The notes beneath the pieces are model-generated. The model saw nothing but the letters and a program-made list of their open reading frames with translations, was not told the origin of the DNA and did not search any database. From Dehalococcoidia bacterium (GTDB lineage Bacteria > Chloroflexota > Dehalococcoidia > DSTF01 > RBG-16-68-14), in the NCBI GenBank assembly GCA_040882355.1, contig JBBEBM010000029.1, forward strand, positions 1 through 64,000: a stretch of DNA of 64,000 bases, in the 5' to 3' direction. Below, piece by piece: positions 6,603-38,337 of this stretch. The position numbers and the translations under genes were made by a program. Position 1 is the stretch's first letter, and each line of letters opens with the position of its first letter.

Positions 6603-6671
6603 GCTGCGGCTCGGCCCGTCGGCTCCTGAAAGCGGGAACGCCGCCGGGCTGCCGGCGGCGTCGAACTCATT

Positions 6672-6770
6672 CGATCCCTTCGCTGGCATTACCCAGATCA
6701 GGTCTAGCGGTCGCCTCGGTGGACCGAGGCCTCTCAGCCGGGCCGTTTTCCCAGCTCCCGCGTTGCTGAT
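6672..6770 (-). ncRNA. TPP riboswitch
   Basis: Minus strand reads GGGAGC...GGCTGAGAGG...GACC...ACCTGATCTGGGTAATGCCAGCGAAGGGA, directly upstream of thiD. Confidence 0.95.
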
Positions 6771-6779
6771 TGTGCTGCC

Positions 6780-6864: not shown

Positions 6865-7028
6865 CAGGCTGCCGAAAAACGGGGGTGCAGGGGGCAGCGC
6901 CCCATGCCGGGGGGTCTGGGGGCCTGTCCTGAGCGAAGCCGAAGGAGTGTCCCCCAGATACACCTAAACATCACTGGGCGGGTGGGTGGGAACGAATGAC
7001 ATTGGTCCTTTGGCCTTTCGGCACCCTG
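6865..7028. mobile_element. MITE-family copy with an inserted REP-like module
   Basis: Ends CAGGCTGCCGAAAAA and CTTTCGGCACCCTG, same internal sequence as the 38193 copy, plus CCTGTCCTGAGCGAAGCCGAAGGA in the central hairpin. Confidence 0.75.
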
Positions 7029-10836: not shown

Positions 10837-10890
10837 CAGCGCGAGCGGCGCGCCCGTTCAGGTTGTTGATAGGAAAAATACGCTCCGCAT

Positions 10891-10983
10891 CTGTTGAGGC
10901 GACGATCTGAGGCATGGGTCCGCCATGGGTGGACCGCTGGTCACCAGCGAACCTCAGGGAGCCAGTGGTGAAACCGGCAACAG
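10891..10983 (+). ncRNA. c-di-GMP-II-type riboswitch (possibly a GAG variant)
   Basis: P1 CTGTTG/CAACAG, CTGAGG/CCTCAG stem, TCACCA/TGGTGA pseudoknot, and 3' GAGCCAGTGGTGAAACCGGC resembling the class II consensus. Confidence 0.7.
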
Positions 10984-11006
10984 GGCAGTTGCCGGTTTCT
11001 TGTCTT
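10970..11006 (+). terminator. Intrinsic terminator overlapping the aptamer 3' end
   Basis: GAAACCGGCAAC-AGGGCA-GTTGCCGGTTTC followed by TTGTCTT. Confidence 0.65.
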
Positions 11007-28459: not shown

Positions 28460-29407
28460 ATGAACGGCGCTCTTCGACCGACGCTCGTCCTTGCGCTGGC
28501 TGGACTCGTGGCCGCCCTGTCGCTGAGCTGCAACGGTGACGGCGGCAAGAAGACCGAGCTCATCGTCATCGACCAGAACATCCTCCACGGCCTGCTCGAC
28601 GAAGATTCCGCCGCGGAACCGTTCGACCGCTTCCCCGAGCGCATCGAGCTGATCGCCGGCGCGCTGGCGGAGCAGCAGCCCGCAATCGTCATGCTCCAGG
28701 AGGTGATCCCGGACGCCTACGCCGACCGCCCGGACTACGTGAACACTCGCCAGGTGCTGCTCGATGCGTTGGGCAGCGAGTACACGGCGCTCTTCGGCGA
28801 CGTGGCGGGCAGCGCGATCAACGAGGGCTTCGTCGGCCAGTTAACGCTCACAAACCTGGAGGTCCTGTCGAGCGAGAACCAGAACATCTCAGGCCCGCGC
28901 TCCATCCACCGGGTGACCGTGCAGACGGAGAGCGGCCCCGTCGACATCTACAACACCCACCTCGAGGGCACCGGCGCCGTCGTTGACGTCACGCTCGACG
29001 CGTCCGTCGTCGAGATGCAAGCGGTCATCGATTTCATCAACGAGACGCGCACGGGCCCCGGCCCCGTCATCCTGGCAGGCGACTTCAATGCCGAGCCGGA
29101 AGACCCTTCGATCCAGTCGCTGCTCGCCGCGGGCTTTATCGACGTGCTCGCGGAGGGCGGCGACGCGACGTGCGAGCAGGTAGGCGACCCCGGCTGCACG
29201 AGCGGCACCACGCCGCTCGCTGAGCCCGGCAATCGCGCCGACCACCGTATCGACTACATCTTCGTGCTCGGCGGCGCCGACGTGGGGATAGACGTCGGCG
29301 AGGCGGCGCTCTTCAACAACGAGCCCTTCACGCTCGACGACGGCAGCGTGCTCTGGGCGTCCGACCACATCGGCGTCCGGGCGTTACTCGAGCTGGTAGG
29401 CGAGTGA
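28460..29407 (+). CDS. Endonuclease/exonuclease/phosphatase-family lipoprotein
   Basis: Lipobox LSC, QNILHG, LQEV, NTHL, AGDFN, RIDYIF, SDH. Confidence 0.85.
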   Translation: MNGALRPTLVLALAGLVAALSLSCNGDGGKKTELIVIDQNILHGLLDEDSAAEPFDRFPERIELIAGALAEQQPAIVMLQEVIPDAYADRPDYVNTRQVLLDALGSEYTALFGDVAGSAINEGFVGQLTLTNLEVLSSENQNISGPRSIHRVTVQTESGPVDIYNTHLEGTGAVVDVTLDASVVEMQAVIDFINETRTGPGPVILAGDFNAEPEDPSIQSLLAAGFIDVLAEGGDATCEQVGDPGCTSGTTPLAEPGNRADHRIDYIFVLGGADVGIDVGEAALFNNEPFTLDDGSVLWASDHIGVRALLELVGE

Positions 29408-30093
29408 CCAGCGGCAACCACTGGCTGGTGGCTAGCGGCTTCGTCTTTGTTGCGCTCTTTGTCGCTGCTGTGATCGTCTCCGGAGAGCAGCTCGGCAGCG
29501 TGGGCGATCCCGACCAGCAGTTCGTTTCCTACTTCAATGACACGAGCAACCGCGCGCGCGATATCGCAGGCGCCTACATCCTGGCGGCGGCGGGGCTGGC
29601 CTTCGTCGTATTTCTAGCGCACATGTACTCCACGCTACGCGAGCGTTCCGGCCAGGGGGCGCTTCCGCTGATAGCGCTTGGCACCGGCCTCGTCTTCGTC
29701 GCCTTGCTGCTTGCCGCAACCGCGGCCCTCAGCGCGGTCTCCACCAGCATGGCATACGCCGATTTGTACGGCGAAGAGCGGCACGAGTTCGACCCCGACG
29801 TGTTGAGGCTGGTGACGCAGCTCGGCTTCATGCTCCTCGTCTTCGCCATGTGGGGAGCCGCTGCCTGCATAGCCGCCATCTCGCTCGCCGCGCGCACGGC
29901 GGGCATCTTCACTGCCTGGCTCGCCGGGTTAGGCTTCGTCGCGGCGTTCGCGCTTCTGTTCAGCTTCTTCTTCCTGCCAGCGGTGGCGCTGCCCATCTGG
30001 GTGCTCGCCGTCAGTGTCATGCTCCTCAGGGACCGGGCAGGGCGAGCGGCTTCAGGGCAACCTCCCCTTGACACCTTCAGCCTGACCCTCTAG
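29404..30093 (+). CDS. Multi-pass membrane protein
   Basis: Several hydrophobic segments; start overlaps the upstream stop. Confidence 0.7.
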   Translation: MTSGNHWLVASGFVFVALFVAAVIVSGEQLGSVGDPDQQFVSYFNDTSNRARDIAGAYILAAAGLAFVVFLAHMYSTLRERSGQGALPLIALGTGLVFVALLLAATAALSAVSTSMAYADLYGEERHEFDPDVLRLVTQLGFMLLVFAMWGAAACIAAISLAARTAGIFTAWLAGLGFVAAFALLFSFFFLPAVALPIWVLAVSVMLLRDRAGRAASGQPPLDTFSLTL

Positions 30094-30096
30094 CAT
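30068..30096 (+). promoter_or_regulatory. Sigma70-type promoter of cofGH
   Basis: TTGACA-17 bp-TAGCAT. Confidence 0.75.
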
Positions 30097-30102
30097 TCGA
30101 TC

Positions 30103-30209
30103 TGTACGACGCAGGTCTGGCCCGGCCTTCAGACCTGCCAGCGGTAGAAGCTGGCGCCGGGCCCACGATAACCTCGACTGGTCGAGGCGTGGGCTCGGCG
30201 TTTTCATTT
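30103..30209 (+). ncRNA. Candidate cis-regulatory RNA (riboswitch-like pseudoknot plus terminator), family not recognised
   Basis: 9-bp hairpin whose loop is complementary to the 5' arm of a 12-13-bp U-tailed terminator. Confidence 0.55.
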
Positions 30210-30274
30210 GGGAAGGACATCATGAGTCGCGCAGCCTACACAATCGGCGCCTCGCCCCTTTGCGCCTCTCCACG

Positions 30275-30365
30275 TGGGGGAGTGCAGAGGGGGCAGGGCC
30301 CCTCTGCCGGGGGTCTGGGGGTGTCCCCCAGAATCAACTACTCCCCTGGGCGGGCGGGTGGGGAG
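30275..30365. repeat. Diverged internal portion of the MITE family without terminal repeats
   Basis: GTGCAG..GGGCAG.GCCCC.CTGCCGGGGGTCTGGGGGTGTCCCCCAGA..TACTCCCCTGGGCGGGCGGGTGGG. Confidence 0.7.
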
Positions 30366-30389
30366 GATCACCCCTCGAAAAGGTAGCCA

Positions 30390-31585
30390 ATGTTCTACGT
30401 CCACCAGCGCCTCGACCCCGCCTTCGAAGAGCTGCTCCATCGCGCCGTCTCCGGAGAGCCGCTCACGCGTGAGCACGGCCTGCGCCTGATGAGCGCGAGC
30501 AGTTCCGAGCTGCCGGCGCTGATGCTCGCGGCCAGCCTTGTGCGGGACCAGGGCCACGGCAAGACCGTCACCTATTCGCGCAAGGTGTTCATCCCGCTCA
30601 CCAACCTCTGTCGGCAGAAGTGCGGCTACTGCACCTTCGCGCGCGGCCCCAAGGACCCCATCGCGCGCACGATGTCGCCGGACGAGGTGCTCGCCGTCGC
30701 CCACGCTGGCCGGCGCCAGGGCTGCAAAGAAGCGCTCTTCTCGCTGGGGGAGAAGCCGGAGGAGATCTACGACTTCGTCCTCGACGACCTGCGTCGCTTC
30801 GGCCACGAGACCACGATCTCTTACCTGCGCGAGATGTGCGCGCTCGTCCTCAGCGAGACCGGCCTCCTGCCCCACGCCAATCCGGGCATCATGTCGCGCG
30901 ACGAGGTCGCGTCGCTGCGCGAGTGCAACGTCTCGATGGGCCTGATGCTGGAGACGACGTCCGAGCGGCTCCACGCGAAGGGCGAAGCGCACTTCAACTG
31001 CCCGGGCAAGATCCCGGAGCTACGCCTGCAGACGATGCGTGACGCCGGCGCCATGGGCGTCGCGTTCACCACGGGCATCCTGATCGGCATCGGCGAGACG
31101 TGGGAGGAACGCGTCGACTCGCTCTTCGCGATCAAGGAAGTGCAGGAGGAGCAGGGCAACATCCAGGAGGTGATCGTCCAGAACTTCCGCGTGAAGGACG
31201 ACATCCCGATGCGCCATCGCGACGAGCCGAGCGTCTATGAGATGCTGCGCACCATCGCTACGGCGCGGCTGGTGCTGGGAGCCGCCATGAACATCCAGGC
31301 CCCGCCCAACCTGACGCCCGACGCCTACGGCATGTACCTGCTCGCGGGCATCAACGACTGGGGCGGCGTCTCGCCTGTGACGAAGGATCATATCAACCCG
31401 GAGGCACCCTGGCCGAAGCTCCTCGAGCTGAAGCAGGTCACCGAAGAGGCCGGCTTCGAGCTGCGCGAGCGGCTGGCGCTCTACCCCGAGTTCGCCAAGA
31501 ACGATCGCTTCGTGCGCGAGAGCTGCCAGCCGGCCATCGAGCGCTGGAACGACGAGTCGGGACTCGTGCGCTGGGAGGAACACCA

Positions 31586-31592
<7 letters not shown>
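30390..31592 (+). CDS. cofG: FO synthase subunit CofG (radical SAM)
   Basis: TYSRKVFIPLTNLCRQKCGYC, PHANPG, SMGLMLE, FTTGILIGIGE, QAPPNL, GINDWGGVSP. Confidence 0.93.
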
Positions 31593-32950
<1,358 letters not shown>

Positions 32951-33064
32951 GGGCGGGTCTCAGACCCACGCCCTGAAGCCGGCGTGTGGCTGCCTCGCAG
33001 TTCGGCCACACCTGCGTGTAGGGGCACCGGCCACCGCCCCGGGTATGGTAGAATTCGCACCGCG

Positions 33065-34033
33065 ATGATGAAGCTTCGCGCCGCCGTCATGGCGCTGGCC
33101 GGGTTCGCTGTCGTTCTGGCGTCGTCTTCCGCCGGGCTGGCGAAAGACGGGGTGCCGGGCTCCGGCCCCTTGCCACAGGGAACGAGCCCCGCGCCGATAG
33201 TGTGGATCGAGGGCCAGGGCGAGGCCTTCATGTGCTTCGATTCCTTTCCGCCAACCGCGATACCCGACACCAGCGGCATTGGTGTCCCTTGTAACATCAC
33301 GGCCAACAGGACAATTCAGGATCTCAACGTCTACCTGGACATCCCCCACACCTGGGTGGGCGACTTGAGCGTGCGGTTGGTGCACCAGGCAACAACCACC
33401 AGCGTGGTGATCATGGACAGGCCTGGCGTTCCCGCCACGATGTTTGGGTGTGCAGAGGACGATGTCGACGTCATGCTGAATGACGAGGGGACGGCGCCGG
33501 TGGAGACGTTCTGCGGCCCGGGCGCCCCGGCCATTCAGGGAGACCTGACTCCAAACAATGCGCTCTCCGCGTTCGACGGCGAGAACTTCACAGGCCCAGG
33601 CTACTGGGTGTTGGTGGTGGAGGATGGCAGGGCGGGCGACACCGGCATGCTGAACGACTGGTACTTGATTGACGCCGACGACGACCACGACGGCTGCACC
33701 GCCAGTAGGGAAGAGGGTGGCAACCCGCTCCTGGGCGGGCTCAGAGACCTGGACAACTTCTGGGACTTCTTTGATACGCCCGGCGTAGCCAACGTTCGCG
33801 ACCGGGCCATCTCCGCAGGCGATCTCGCCCGCGTCGTCGAGCGTTTCGGCAGCTCAGGCAGCAAGAGCATCGACCCGCTGGCGGCGCCCCCGCCGCCAAC
33901 CGCCTATCACACCGCATTCGACCGCACGCCGCCTGGCACAGCGCCCAACGGCATCGACCAGAGCGCCAACGGCTCGATCACCGTGCAGGACATCAGCGTC
34001 ATCGTCTCGCAGTTCGGCCACACCTGCGCGTAA
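33065..34033 (+). CDS. Secreted proprotein-convertase P-domain protein with a conserved C-terminal tail (flexitail-like)
   Basis: Signal peptide, HTWVGDL.V.L P-domain, tail DGC...RD...WDFFD...QFGHTCA. Confidence 0.75.
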   Translation: MMKLRAAVMALAGFAVVLASSSAGLAKDGVPGSGPLPQGTSPAPIVWIEGQGEAFMCFDSFPPTAIPDTSGIGVPCNITANRTIQDLNVYLDIPHTWVGDLSVRLVHQATTTSVVIMDRPGVPATMFGCAEDDVDVMLNDEGTAPVETFCGPGAPAIQGDLTPNNALSAFDGENFTGPGYWVLVVEDGRAGDTGMLNDWYLIDADDDHDGCTASREEGGNPLLGGLRDLDNFWDFFDTPGVANVRDRAISAGDLARVVERFGSSGSKSIDPLAAPPPPTAYHTAFDRTPPGTAPNGIDQSANGSITVQDISVIVSQFGHTCA

Positions 34034-34048: not shown

Positions 34049-35389
34049 TTGACGAAGCCCGGCTTGGCAAAACTGCGCATCCTACCCCTCGTCGTCTTGC
34101 TGCTCGCGCTCGCCTCCGCATTAGGCACGCTGGACCCGGAAGCGGAGACCGCCGCGTCCCGGCCGGCACCCGCCAGCGATGCGCAACCCCTTGGCGTCGG
34201 TGACTCCTGCCGCGATTACGCCAGCGCGCCCGGCTCGCAGTCGATCCCTGATCCGGGCATGCTGATCGCCAACCTCAGCGTGCCCGACTCGCTCACGGTC
34301 TCCAGCGTGCAAGTCACGGTAAACATCACCCATCCGTCCGACGGCGAGCTTGACGTCTTCCTGCGGTCGCCGGCGGGCACGCTGGTGGAGCTGTTTTCCG
34401 GCGTCGGAGGCGCGGGGGCCAACTTCGTCAACACGACCCTGAACGACGCGGCCGCGACATCTATCACGGCGGGGGCTGCGCCCTTCACCGGGTCGTTCCG
34501 GCCGGAGGGCTCGCTGGCCGATCTCGCCGGTCTCACGTTTGCGGGGACGTGGCAGCTTCGCGTCACAGACGGCGCCGCGCCGAACTCGGGAACGCTCAAC
34601 TCCTGGTCGTTGACGCTCTGCAGCAGCATCCTCAACGACGCGTTCTCGGACGCAGTCGACATCTCGGACCCGCCGTCTACCTACGCGCAGTACACAGAGT
34701 CGGCCACGACGGCGTTTGACGACCCCGTCGTCGACTGCAACGGCACCGCATCCACGCACTCCAGGTCGGTGTGGTTTCGCCTGCAGTTGCCGGTCGGCGC
34801 GGTGGCCGAGATCACGACCAACGGGAGCAGCTACGATACCGTCCTGGCCGTCTTCACCGGCACGGCAGGCGCGCTCACCCAGGTGGCGTGCAACGACAAC
34901 GGCGGCATCGGTCTGCAGTCAACCGTCGGGCCGCTGTTCGTGCACGCCGGCGCCACGTACTACATCGAAGCCGTCGATTTCAACCTGAGCGGCGGCAGTC
35001 TTCTCCTCACGATGACTGCGAACTCGAATGGGGACCCGGACGGCGACGGGTGCACGAACGGCCAGGAGCTGGGTCCCCTGCCCGTCCTGGGCGGCGGTCG
35101 TGACCCGTTCATCTACTGGGACTTCTTCGACACGCCCAACGCGGCCAACGCGCGCGACGCCGCGATCACCGCTGGCGACCTCGCGCGTGTTGTCGAGCGT
35201 TTCGGCAGCTCAGGCGACAAGACGGTCGACCCGATGTCTGCGCCGCCGGCGCCGCCCGCCTACCACCCGGCGTTCGACCGGTCGCCGCCCGGCACGGCGC
35301 CCAACGCGCAGGAGCAGGGCCCGAACGGCTCGGTGACCGCTCAGGACATCGCGGTGATCGTCTCCCAGTTCGGCCACACCTGCGCGTAG
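34049..35389 (+). CDS. Secreted P-domain plus second beta-rich domain protein with the same C-terminal tail
   Basis: Signal peptide, THPSDGELDVFL P-domain, NDAF...SVWF...YDTVLAVF...CNDN domain, tail ending QFGHTCA. Confidence 0.75.
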   Translation: MTKPGLAKLRILPLVVLLLALASALGTLDPEAETAASRPAPASDAQPLGVGDSCRDYASAPGSQSIPDPGMLIANLSVPDSLTVSSVQVTVNITHPSDGELDVFLRSPAGTLVELFSGVGGAGANFVNTTLNDAAATSITAGAAPFTGSFRPEGSLADLAGLTFAGTWQLRVTDGAAPNSGTLNSWSLTLCSSILNDAFSDAVDISDPPSTYAQYTESATTAFDDPVVDCNGTASTHSRSVWFRLQLPVGAVAEITTNGSSYDTVLAVFTGTAGALTQVACNDNGGIGLQSTVGPLFVHAGATYYIEAVDFNLSGGSLLLTMTANSNGDPDGDGCTNGQELGPLPVLGGGRDPFIYWDFFDTPNAANARDAAITAGDLARVVERFGSSGDKTVDPMSAPPAPPAYHPAFDRSPPGTAPNAQEQGPNGSVTAQDIAVIVSQFGHTCA

Positions 35390-38188: not shown

Positions 38189-38337
38189 CTAGCAGGGTGC
38201 TGAAAAACGGGGTGCAGGGGGCAGCGCCCCATGCCGGGGGGTCTGGGGGGTGTCCCCCCAGATTCACCAATACTCCCCTGGGCGGGCGGGTGGGAACGAA
38301 TGACATTGGTTCTTGGGCTTTTTCAGCACCCTGCTAG
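38189..38337. mobile_element. Complete 141-bp MITE-like element (38193-38333) flanked by CTAG on both sides
   Basis: Perfect 15-bp inverted ends CAGGGTGCTGAAAAA/TTTTTCAGCACCCTG; no coding capacity. Confidence 0.8.

What the first reader, a model, noticed from the sequence alone, without database searches (positions are those of the whole stretch)
30068..30389. Unrecognised riboswitch-like leader in front of FO synthase (cofG-cofH): candidate F420-pathway riboswitch
Seen: a strong promoter (TTGACA-17-TAGCAT) is followed by a perfect 9-bp hairpin GCAGGTCTG/CAGACCTGC (30111-30138) and a second hairpin GCCAGC-GGTAGAA-GCTGGC. Next comes a terminator GCCGGGCCCACG...CGTGGGCTCGGC-G-TTTTCATTT (30156-30209). 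The first hairpin's loop region GGCCCGGC (30119-30126) is exactly complementary to the terminator's 5' arm GCCGGGCC (30156-30163). Pseudoknot and terminator are therefore mutually exclusive, which is the layout of a transcriptional switch. Established: CofG/CofH make the deazaflavin FO from tyrosine and a riboflavin-pathway precursor. I know of no riboswitch described for F420 synthesis, and this leader does not match the FMN, SAM, cobalamin or ZTP consensuses I remember. Inference: the ligand could be FO/F420, a flavin precursor, or a protein.
Basis: partly seen in the sequence, partly recalled or inferred. Interest (0 to 1): 0.85.

Follow-up and report, generated by a model that had tools for sequence, protein, structure and literature searches.

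The report
New riboswitch-like leader before F420 genes
A short, strongly conserved folded RNA sits in front of the genes that make the head-group of coenzyme F420 in one group of uncultured Dehalococcoidia, matches no described RNA family, and looks like a switch that lets the genes be read only when its fold is held shut.

Summary
Promoter-like site, hairpins, terminator and the loop/terminator complementarity are all at the stated coordinates.

The element is a conserved cis-regulatory leader of cofG-cofH. A covariance model finds exactly one copy per genome in 44 of 93 genomes of the order, in two families. It lies upstream of cofG wherever the DNA allows, and 32 of 41 metagenome copies also show cofG downstream. 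Rfam has no match.

It is a stem (CCNGGC/GCCGGG) enclosing an 11-nt junction with invariant CCUG and a 5-bp hairpin with a GGNNNNA loop. The hairpin covaries.

The stem's 3' strand is the 5' arm of the terminator. One genus lacks the terminator and instead pairs the junction with the start codon. Both layouts imply that the folded core means ON.

Window 30225-30389 is a later 168-nt insertion carrying a dispersed repeat.

Best reading: a new ON-type riboswitch candidate with an unknown ligand. A protein-dependent antiterminator is the main rival. No ligand or expression data exist.

The parts
30068..30096 (+). Promoter-like site: TTGACA, 17-nt spacer, TAGCAT. The stop codon TAG of the upstream ORF (29404-30093) lies inside the -10 hexamer. 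The inferred transcription start is near 30103-30105.
   Evidence: 10 of 12 consensus matches, the only site found in 5 kb. A TTGAC.../TAnnnT pair stands at the same distance in the relatives read. The transcription start is inferred, not measured.
30111..30138 (+). Accessory 5' hairpin P1 (GCAGGTCTG / CAGACCTGC). It is lineage-specific. Its loop carries the 5' strand of P1', and its 3' strand is the junction segment that ends in CCUG.
   Evidence: It is present in most family-f1 leaders but absent in G006, G010, G011 and G013. In family f5 it is absent from all leaders read except G053.
30119..30126 (+). P1' 5' strand (GGCCCGGC), the antiterminator strand.
   Evidence: columns 4-9 pair with columns 41-46 in all but 1 of the cells over 66 distinct sequences. 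Changes are C/U against G only. Family f5 has one extra G-C pair.
30127..30137 (+). 11-nt 5' junction (CTTCAGACCTG) with CCTG at 30134-30137. CCTG is invariant apart from the second C, which reads T in 4 of 66 distinct sequences. The CC may pair with the GG of the P2 loop to form a small H-type pseudoknot.
   Evidence: Searches show the invariance. The junction is 11 nt in all three leader types. proposed pseudoknot: CG 66/66; CG 62 and UG 4; third pair AU 40, GU 9, CG 5, unpaired 12.
30138..30154 (+). P2 hairpin: CCAGC, loop GGTAGAA, GCTGG. The loop consensus is GGNNNNA.
   Evidence: 100% of cells paired in 66 distinct sequences. Two pairs show compensatory changes (CG 33 / UA 33; GC 41 / AU 25).
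30156..30163 (+). P1' 3' strand (GCCGGGCC), which is also the base of the terminator's 5' arm. This is the shared, switching segment.
30156..30209 (+). Intrinsic terminator: a 12-bp lower stem plus a 6-bp upper stem (30156-30199), then G and TTTTCATTT (30201-30209).
   Evidence: 65 of 72 distinct leaders have a hairpin that starts at or within GCCGGG and ends at a T tract.
30118..30169 (+). Extent of the covariance-model match, that is, the conserved core.
   Evidence: 75.2 bits with model R1 and 64.0 bits with model R2. It is the only match in the whole genome.
30210..30224 (+). Ancestral ribosome-binding site (GGGAAGGA) and ancestral cofG start codon (ATG 30222-30224).
   Evidence: In G004, G005, G007 and G014 the T tract is followed at once by a GGAG-like site and the ATG of cofG. 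The window's ATG 30222 aligns with that start.
30225..30389 (+). 168-nt insertion, counted from ATG 30222 to ATG 30390. It contains a dispersed repeat at 30277-30372. It turns the old start into a 54-codon upstream ORF (30222-30386, stop TAG 30384-30386) in the same frame as cofG, ending 3 nt before it.
   Evidence: 38 other matches in the genome, all to this part of the query. Searches give the frame and the ORF 30189-30386; contigs of three runs of one study (X1, X3, X4) run from the leader into the repeat, further contigs including one of X2 run out of it, and none skips the insertion.
30390..31592 (+). cofG, FO synthase subunit 1.
   Evidence: TIGR03550 454.6 bits (cut-off 213).
31586..32950 (+). 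cofH, FO synthase subunit 2. It overlaps cofG by 7 nt.
   Evidence: TIGR03551 462.6 bits (cut-off 374).

Best explanation
Window 30104-30209 is the 5' leader of the cofG-cofH (FO synthase) transcript and acts as a conditional terminator.

The core is a small conserved RNA of about 47 nt (30119-30163). It consists of stem P1' (CCNGGC/GCCGGG), an 11-nt junction ending in invariant CCUG, and hairpin P2 with a GGNNNNA loop. The CC of the junction probably pairs with the GG of the loop.

This core folds first during transcription. Its 3' strand is also the base of a strong intrinsic terminator. Unless the core is held shut, the terminator's 3' arm displaces P1' and transcription stops before cofG.

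I read the core as the aptamer of an undescribed riboswitch class. A small-molecule ligand would stabilise P1' and so turn FO synthesis ON. The ligand is unknown. The ON logic points to a precursor or demand signal rather than the end product. Candidates are 5-amino-6-ribitylaminouracil, another flavin-pathway or F420-tail intermediate, or a compound whose metabolism needs F420.

Shown: conservation, gene association, pairing and covariation, the terminator overlap, and the alternative translational platform.
Inferred: the transcription start, the co-transcriptional order of folding, ligand binding, and the ON direction.
For: 1. Strong purifying selection on non-coding DNA. BLASTN matches at E below 1e-7 occur in 14 of 15 genomes of the same family, in eight other genera.
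2. One site per genome. Model R2 hits exactly once in each of 44 of 93 genomes of the order: family f1 own genome plus 14 of 15, f5 29 of 36, f2, f3 and f4 0 of 41.
3. Association with cofG.
   - 13 of 13 f1 loci with downstream DNA have cofG next, while the upstream gene is shared in only 3 of those 13.
   - All f5 hits that I read lie upstream of cofG.
   - Of 41 true metagenome copies, 32 show cofG. Eight have 300 nt or less downstream. One (L263) has a truncated cofG.
   - Families without cofG have no motif.
4. Structure.
   - P2 is 100% paired, with two compensatory pairs.
   - The P1' core is paired in all but 1 cell.
   - Overall 94.0% of cells are paired, against 18.6-44.4% when partners are slid.
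   - 0 of 500 shuffles reach the observed covariation score.
5. Switch layout.
   - 65 of 72 distinct leaders carry a terminator that starts in the P1' 3' strand.
   - In 53 of 65 the partial transcript's minimum-energy fold forms P1'. In 60 of 65 the full leader's fold forms the terminator.
   - Window energies: full leader -60.4 kcal/mol with the terminator, -48.6 with P1' and P2 enforced. The 83-nt partial transcript folds into P1' plus P2.
6. No room for a second promoter. In several relatives the T tract is followed directly by the ribosome-binding site and start codon of cofG.
7. A second type of expression platform on the same core. In genus g29 and three metagenome contigs there is no terminator. 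Instead about 12 nt (the end of the P1' 5' strand plus the junction) are complementary to the cofG start-codon region. In both platforms the folded core gives expression.
8. No leader peptide: there is no ATG between the inferred start and the terminator.
9. No Rfam family matches.
Against: - No ligand, no binding data and no expression data. No RNA run holds this DNA.
- The distribution is narrow, two families of one order. It was not found in 144 other genomes of the class or in 150 of the phylum that were sampled. One 32-bit match there lies inside an unrelated ORF. Those searches used Infernal's stricter filters.
- Only one gene association exists, which gives little help in naming a ligand and lowers the prior for a metabolite sensor.
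- P1' is supported only by one-sided changes and one inserted pair, because its 3' strand is invariant.
- The third pseudoknot pair fails in 12 of 66 distinct sequences.
- Alignment A6 was fitted to the model's structure, which inflates the pairing counts.
- An ON switch on the first committed step of a cofactor pathway is unusual. End-product OFF control is the common pattern.
- Three cofG loci in the order lack an intact motif: G018 and G023 have none, and in G068 P2 is deleted.
Confidence: 0.45

Rival explanations
1. Same leader and same antiterminator/terminator competition, but the P1'-junction-P2 hairpin is held shut by an RNA-binding protein or another trans-acting factor. This would work like the RAT/LicT-SacY, PyrR or ANTAR systems rather than through a small molecule.
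For: - The core is a single imperfect hairpin overlapping a terminator's 5' arm, the general layout of protein-bound antiterminators (my recollection of those systems).
- The distribution is narrow, with a single target per genome.
- Very high sequence invariance in stems as well as loops would also suit a protein footprint.
Against: - No candidate regulator gene is linked to the locus. The neighbours differ between genomes.
- The element does not have the two hexaloop hairpins I recall for ANTAR targets. The loops are 7 nt and 9 nt or longer, and the first hairpin is usually missing.
- Two kinds of expression platform on one core and a cofactor-pathway target are the usual marks of metabolite riboswitches.
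Confidence: 0.25
2. A riboswitch, but an OFF switch that senses the end product (FO or F420). The ligand would favour the terminator form, for example by capturing the 5' strand or the junction in another fold.
For: - End-product feedback is the common logic for cofactor-pathway riboswitches (established knowledge).
- In one sub-lineage a 5' hairpin (30111-30138) can sequester the junction and, in some members, part of the P1' 5' strand.
Against: - The universally conserved parts (P1', junction, P2) make up the antiterminator form, not the terminator form.
- The 5' hairpin is absent from most members.
- In genus g29 the same conserved segment is the anti-start-codon strand, so folding of the core frees the start codon.
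Confidence: 0.12
3. Not a switch. The hairpins are simply the terminator of the upstream gene, a free-standing small RNA gene, or a constitutive attenuator that sets a low fixed level of cofGH.
For: - The upstream ORF ends at 30093, 63 nt before the terminator stem.
- Promoter plus terminator would give an RNA of about 100 nt.
- No expression data exist.
Against: - The upstream gene is shared in only 3 of 13 family loci, while the element and its own promoter-like site always travel with cofG.
- In several relatives there is no space for a cofG promoter after the T tract.
- A plain terminator would not keep a 30-nt invariant 5' segment, a competing complementary strand and a covarying extra hairpin.
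- Genus g29 keeps the core without any terminator.
Confidence: 0.08

Closest known systems
ON-type transcriptional riboswitches in which the aptamer's closing stem shares a strand with the terminator (for example the pbuE adenine, ZTP/pfl, fluoride/crcB and guanidine-I classes; named from my own knowledge)
   Same: - A promoter-proximal conserved fold whose 3' strand is the 5' arm of an intrinsic terminator.
- The terminator form is the more stable one.
- The partial transcript folds into the aptamer-like form first.
- Members with a translational platform also exist.
   Different: - No sequence or structure match to any of these families (Rfam cmscan).
- The ligand is unknown and binding is untested.
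- The controlled genes, cofG-cofH, are not known targets of any riboswitch in the literature I could search.
FMN riboswitch (RFN element, RF00050)
   Same: It controls a flavin-type cofactor pathway that draws on the same pyrimidine precursor, and it often acts by termination (established knowledge; FMN riboswitch passages of PMC12855090 read).
   Different: - The FMN aptamer is a large six-helix junction and an OFF switch (my recollection). This core is a roughly 47-nt hairpin with one junction and reads as ON.
- No cmscan match even at E up to 10 in the window, or at E up to 0.1 in 16 other loci.
Small H-type pseudoknot aptamers such as preQ1-I, SAM-II/SAM-V and guanidine-III (from my own knowledge)
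   Same: If the CC of the junction pairs with the GG of the P2 loop, the inner part is a compact H-type pseudoknot: a 3-bp stem, a 2-nt loop UG, the 5-bp P2, and a 4-nt loop ending in A. This size is typical of these classes (for the pair counts).
   Different: - Here the pseudoknot would be nested inside a further closing stem, P1'.
- Its third pair fails in 12 of 66 distinct sequences.
- There is no Rfam match.
- The pseudoknot is a proposal, not shown.
Protein-dependent antiterminator hairpins (RAT/LicT-SacY; ANTAR targets)
   Same: An imperfect hairpin overlapping a terminator that must be stabilised for read-through.
   Different: - No linked regulator gene.
- The loop and hairpin pattern does not fit what I recall of ANTAR targets.
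- The target is a cofactor-synthesis operon, not a sugar or nitrogen catabolic one.

Membership tests
Any Rfam 15 family (4227 models, including FMN, SAM classes, cobalamin, ZTP, preQ1, THF, guanidine, T-box) | Covariance-model score at or above the family's gathering threshold | tested here: not met
   - the only gathering-level hits in the 64-kb window are TPP (6659-6771, minus strand) and c-di-GMP-II-GAG (10886-10988, plus strand).
- in 29950-30450 at E up to 10 there are only matches at 20.2 bits or less, far below their thresholds.
- 0 matches at E up to 0.1 in 16 other loci that carry the motif.
Riboswitch (generic kind) | Conserved, structured aptamer with covariation, in the 5' leader of the regulated gene | tested here: met
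   - P2 has two compensatory pairs, the P1' core is paired in all but 1 cell, and 94% of cells are paired overall.
- the element is always 5' of cofG on the same strand.
Riboswitch (generic kind) | Expression platform that is mutually exclusive with the aptamer; more than one platform type across members | tested here: met
   - terminator overlap in 65 of 72 distinct leaders.
- a start-codon-sequestering helix replaces the terminator in genus g29 and in related metagenome contigs.
Riboswitch (generic kind) | Direct, protein-free binding of a small molecule that changes the fold and the gene's expression | not testable with these tools
   Needs in-line probing or ITC and termination or reporter assays. 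No RNA run was available.
Intrinsic (Rho-independent) terminator / attenuator | G+C-rich hairpin followed directly by a U tract, between promoter and gene | tested here: met
   for the window (stem 30156-30199, TTTTCATTT 30201-30209). for 65 of 72 distinct homologues.
Leader-peptide (ribosome-mediated) attenuator | Short ORF with a ribosome-binding site inside the leader, rich in the regulating amino acid | tested here: not met
   no ATG between the inferred start (about 30104) and the T tract. The P2-loop codons that would fall in a GUG-started frame in some f5 members are not conserved.
ANTAR-regulated leader | Two tandem hairpins with hexanucleotide loops, the second overlapping the terminator (definition recalled, not from a call) | tested here: not met
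   the only universal hairpin has a 7-nt loop. The first hairpin has a loop of 9 nt or more and is absent in most members.
Dispersed repeat / mobile element (for the whole interval 30068-30389) | Many copies scattered in the genome, unrelated to gene function | tested here: not met
   only 30277-30372 is repeated (38 other matches). Window 30100-30276 matches only itself. Models R1 and R2 find one site per genome.

The most novel reading that the evidence does not exclude
This is the first riboswitch class tied to deazaflavin (F420) metabolism. It would be a minimal aptamer of about 47 nt that turns FO synthase ON in response to a pathway precursor or a demand signal. Examples are 5-amino-6-ribitylaminouracil diverted from riboflavin synthesis, or an accumulating F420-tail intermediate. 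That would reveal feed-forward control of a cofactor pathway by RNA in uncultured Dehalococcoidia.
Probability: 0.4. Interest if true: 0.82.

Novelty: new variant of a known kind. Interest (0 to 1): 0.7.

Why it matters
In the literature I could search, nothing is described about how bacteria regulate F420 synthesis at the RNA level, and no riboswitch is linked to this cofactor.

A validated aptamer would add a new ligand class, or a new ligand logic, to the riboswitch list. It would also give a handle on F420 physiology in abundant but uncultured sediment and soil Dehalococcoidia. It could serve as a small genetic sensor for a deazaflavin-pathway metabolite, which is useful for engineering F420 production.

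The element is short, has clear mutational targets (P1', CCUG, the GG of the loop), and exists in two platform versions. The hypothesis is therefore directly testable in vitro without growing the organisms.

Tried and rejected
- **Rfam.** Gathering and E-value modes gave nothing at the site.
- **Expression evidence.** No RNA holder is listed for this DNA. Laying contigs of four DNA runs showed only that contigs break in the repeat and none skips the insertion.
- **Genome contigs pattern scan.** My pattern was too loose. Only three rows (L100, L120, L202), titled Dehalococcoidia or Chloroflexia, had cofG.
- **Metagenome scan.** It needed exact matches to a pattern built from known members, so it cannot find divergent relatives or new gene associations.
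  - Of its 88 loci I passed 53 to the model. All 33 judged true scored 41 bits or more. Of 20 judged chance, 2 scored about 31 bits and 18 did not score.
  - The other 35 were not scored. Eight of them have cores identical to scored members.
- **Wider searches.** The class and phylum samples gave no hit outside the order, apart from one 32-bit match inside an ORF.
- **Earlier findings of this scan.** Nothing relevant by place, sequence or words.
- **Leader peptide, T-box and ANTAR readings.** Considered and rejected; see the membership tests.
- **Photolyase idea.** I considered that cofGH might serve only a photolyase antenna. The genome has two cofD genes and cofE, and no photolyase FAD-binding domain was found at 94% completeness. 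F420 synthesis is therefore the likely use.
Full report
**What is in the window.**
- TTGACA-17-TAGCAT lies at 30068-30096. It is the only promoter-like site in 5 kb.
- A 9-bp hairpin lies at 30111-30138.
- A second hairpin, CCAGC-GGTAGAA-GCTGG, lies at 30138-30154.
- A long hairpin at 30156-30199 is followed by G and TTTTCATTT.
- GGCCCGGC in the first loop (30119-30126) is the exact complement of GCCGGGCC (30156-30163) at the base of the terminator.

The stretch folds far better than shuffles (z = -4.5). The genes that follow are cofG (30390-31592; TIGR03550, 454.6 bits) and cofH (31586-32950; TIGR03551, 462.6 bits). The upstream ORF (29404-30093, 229 aa) has no family match, and its stop codon lies inside the -10 hexamer.

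**The 3' part of the interval is an insertion.** I searched the window's own genome with 30100-30392 and got 39 matches. The 38 non-self matches all map to 30276-30372. They represent a dispersed repeat of about 90 nt. Nothing else in the genome matches 30100-30276.
- In relatives, the terminator's T tract is followed within 10-20 nt by a GGAG-like site and the cofG start codon (G004, G005, G007, G014).
- The window's GGGAAGGA-N4-ATG (ATG 30222) aligns with that start.
- So 168 nt have been inserted right after the ancestral start codon.
- The old start now opens a 54-codon ORF (30222-30386). It is in the same frame as cofG and stops 3 nt before the present ATG at 30390.
- Logan contigs of three runs of one study (X1, X3, X4) run from the leader into the repeat, further contigs including one of X2 run out of it, and none skips the insertion.
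- How cofG is translated now (coupling to the upstream ORF, or the weak AAGG before 30390) is inference.

**Conservation.** A 221-nt query (30060-30280) found matches at E below 1e-7 in 14 of 15 genomes of the same family, belonging to eight other genera. It found none in 25 genomes of the order's other families.
- In 13 of 13 family loci that extend downstream, the match is directly 5' of cofG (78-85% protein identity). The fourteenth locus ends at a contig edge.
- The window's upstream gene recurs in only 3 of those 13. The element therefore travels with cofG and with its own TTGAC.../TAnnnT site, not with the gene before it.
- About 30 nt are invariant, from CCTG through P2 to GCCGGG.

**Covariance models.** Model R1 was built from the 15 family sequences. 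It hit once per genome in the family, and weakly (about 31 bits) in two genomes of a second family, f5. Both weak hits lie upstream of cofG.
- Reading the upstream regions of cofG across the order showed that nearly all f5 genomes carry a diverged version.
- Model R2 was built from 40 sequences of both families. It hits exactly once in each of 44 of 93 genomes of the order: own genome plus 14 of 15 in f1, 29 of 36 in f5, and 0 of 41 in f2, f3 and f4. This covers 25 of 40 genera.
- cofG (E at most 1e-40) is present in 47 of 93 genomes and in none of the 39 genomes of f2 and f3.

Exceptions to the cofG/motif pairing:

| Genome | Situation |
|---|---|
| G003 | cofG present; the contig ends inside cofG, so upstream DNA is missing |
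| G018 (f4) | cofG present, no motif upstream |
| G023 | cofG present, no motif upstream |
| G068 | cofG present; P2 is deleted but the terminator is kept |
| G013 | motif present, cofG not found; the motif is at a contig end |
| G065 | a 242-aa HicB-like/DinB_2 ORF lies between leader and cofG |

G060 is flagged as unpublished. It is one of the 44 genomes and one row (L064) of the alignments. No statement here depends on it, and a metagenome contig (L263) has the same core.

**Outside the order.** No hit was found in 144 other genomes of the class. In 150 genomes of the phylum there was one 32-bit match, inside an unrelated ORF. Both searches are samples and used Infernal's stricter filters. 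Record titles of matching contigs name Dehalococcoidia MAGs.
- A strict pattern scan of metagenome contigs gave 88 loci.
- By core sequence, 41 of them are true copies.
  - 32 show cofG downstream.
  - 8 have 300 nt or less of downstream DNA.
  - One (L263, a 1.1-kb contig) has cofG cut off after about 15 codons.
- R2 separates true copies (41 bits or more) from chance pattern matches (31 bits or less). I scored 53 of the 88.
- Because the pattern was built from known members, this scan cannot reveal new gene associations.

**Structure.** On alignment A6 (74 sequences, 66 distinct), I counted the pairs.
- P2 is paired in 100% of cells, with two compensatory pairs (CG 33 / UA 33; GC 41 / AU 25).
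- The six central pairs of P1' are paired in all but one cell. Variation is only C/U against an invariant G-rich 3' strand. Family f5 has one extra G-C pair, made by an insertion on each side.
- Overall 94.0% of cells pair, against 18.6-44.4% when partners are slid by 1-3 columns. None of 500 shuffles reach the observed covariation score.
- Caveats: the alignment was fitted to this structure, the sequences are related, and P1' has no double compensatory change.
- The 5' junction is 11 nt in all three leader types and ends in CCUG. CCUG is invariant apart from the second C, which is U in 4 distinct sequences.
- The P2 loop is GGNNNNA.
- A pairing of NCC in the junction with GGN in the loop would make a compact H-type pseudoknot. 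It is consistent with the data (CG 66; CG 62 / UG 4; AU 40, GU 9, CG 5) but fails at the third pair in 12 sequences. I treat it as a proposal.
In f5 it is missing from all leaders read except G053. It is therefore an accessory. Where present it can sequester the junction.

**Switch logic.** In 65 of 72 distinct leaders, a hairpin that begins at or within GCCGGG ends at a T tract.
- The seven exceptions are two contig ends, one weak T tract (G007), and four leaders of the g29 type.
- The terminator's upper part and 3' arm differ between lineages while the 5' arm stays fixed.
- For the window, the full leader's best fold is the terminator form (-60.4 kcal/mol). The best fold with P1' and P2 enforced is -48.6. 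The 83-nt transcript that exists before the terminator's 3' arm is made folds into P1' plus P2.
- Across 65 leaders, the partial transcript's best fold forms P1' in 53, and the full leader's best fold forms the terminator in 60. The other five are the sub-type whose terminator overlaps P1' by only 3-4 nt.
- In genus g29 (G049-G051) and three metagenome contigs there is no terminator. Instead the last bases of the P1' 5' strand plus the junction (about 12 nt) are complementary to the cofG start-codon region.
- In both designs the folded conserved core leaves the gene expressible, and the unfolded core gives the OFF structure. A factor that stabilises the core should therefore switch FO synthase ON.

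**What it most likely is.** The following features fit a riboswitch:
- an invariant junction and loop;
- a covarying helix;
- a dual-use strand;
- two platform types;
- a cofactor-pathway target;
- one site per genome;
- no leader peptide.

I put a ligand-activated (ON) riboswitch at 0.45, an end-product OFF riboswitch at 0.12, a protein- or factor-dependent antiterminator at 0.25, and 'not a switch' at 0.08.
- The genome has two cofD genes and cofE elsewhere, without the motif, and no photolyase domain. So only the first committed step of F420 synthesis is controlled.
- ON logic suggests a precursor or demand signal.
- I cannot name the ligand from sequence.

**Comparison with what is known.** No Rfam 15 family matches the window site or 16 other members.
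- Searches of the paper library for F420, deazaflavin, cofG, cofH or fbiC together with riboswitch found no report of such an element.
  - Phrase searches such as 'F420 riboswitch' returned 0 papers.
  - In PMC12855090 I read the passages with 'riboswitch'. All concern the FMN riboswitch.
  - In the F420 review PMC8498797 I searched for regulation terms and read the passages shown. 'Regulation of F420' and 'regulated' occur 0 times.
  - For the orphan-riboswitch review PMC7266159 I saw only the search listing, which shows 0 occurrences of F420.
- Subscription-only papers and supplements were not searched.
- The closest known systems by mechanism are ON-type transcriptional riboswitches whose closing stem shares a strand with the terminator. 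By shape, the closest are the small pseudoknot aptamers. It is a member of none.

**Verdict.** It is a new class within a known kind of system. It is well supported by comparative data and awaits biochemical testing.

Noticed in passing
window 6659-6771 (-) and 10886-10988 (+): Two known riboswitches reach Rfam gathering scores elsewhere in the window: TPP (55.1 bits) and c-di-GMP-II-GAG (46.7 bits).
   Followed up: no
window 30277-30372; also 8-86, 153-197, 6881-6929, 38216-38294: A dispersed G+C-rich repeat of about 90 nt, able to form hairpins, has 38 further matches in this 3.3-Mb genome, several of them inside the window. A similar repeat sits at the same place, between terminator and cofG, in G015.
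   Followed up: partly
L017, L019 (G009, G001); L011, L018 (G002, G012); L010 (G008): The short spacer between the leader's terminator and the cofG start is a hot spot for small insertions. At least two other repeat types sit there in different relatives.
   Followed up: no
window 30222-30386: The insertion turned the ancestral cofG start into a 54-codon upstream ORF. It is in the same frame as cofG and stops 3 nt before the new ATG. cofG may now depend on termination-reinitiation (inference).
   Followed up: partly
family f5 leaders, e.g. L067, L048, L060 (just after the T tract): The T tract is followed by a conserved GTCGCC in most f5 members. This repeats the GTCGCC that precedes GGG in the P1' 3' strand, and it could pair with the GGCGG of the P1' 5' strand in read-through RNA. 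I have no explanation for it.
   Followed up: no
L299 (G068): A decayed copy of the leader: the P2 hairpin is deleted but the promoter-like site, the P1' strands and the terminator are kept. It may be a natural loss-of-regulation variant or an assembly error.
   Followed up: no
L297 304-1032 (G065): A 242-aa ORF lies between the leader and cofG, with its stop overlapping the cofG start. It matches HicB_lk_antitox (28.1 bits) and, below threshold, DinB_2. It is the only extra gene seen under the leader's control.
   Followed up: partly
L263 (metagenome contig, 1104 nt): An intact leader and terminator are followed by a reading frame that begins like f5 cofG but stops after about 48 codons (my reading of the sequence printed), with unrelated sequence after it. 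This is a deletion, a rearrangement or a chimeric contig.
   Followed up: no
window 32984-34033 and 34049-35389: Two adjacent ORFs after cofH carry proprotein-convertase P-domains (PF01483). No link to F420 is apparent.
   Followed up: no
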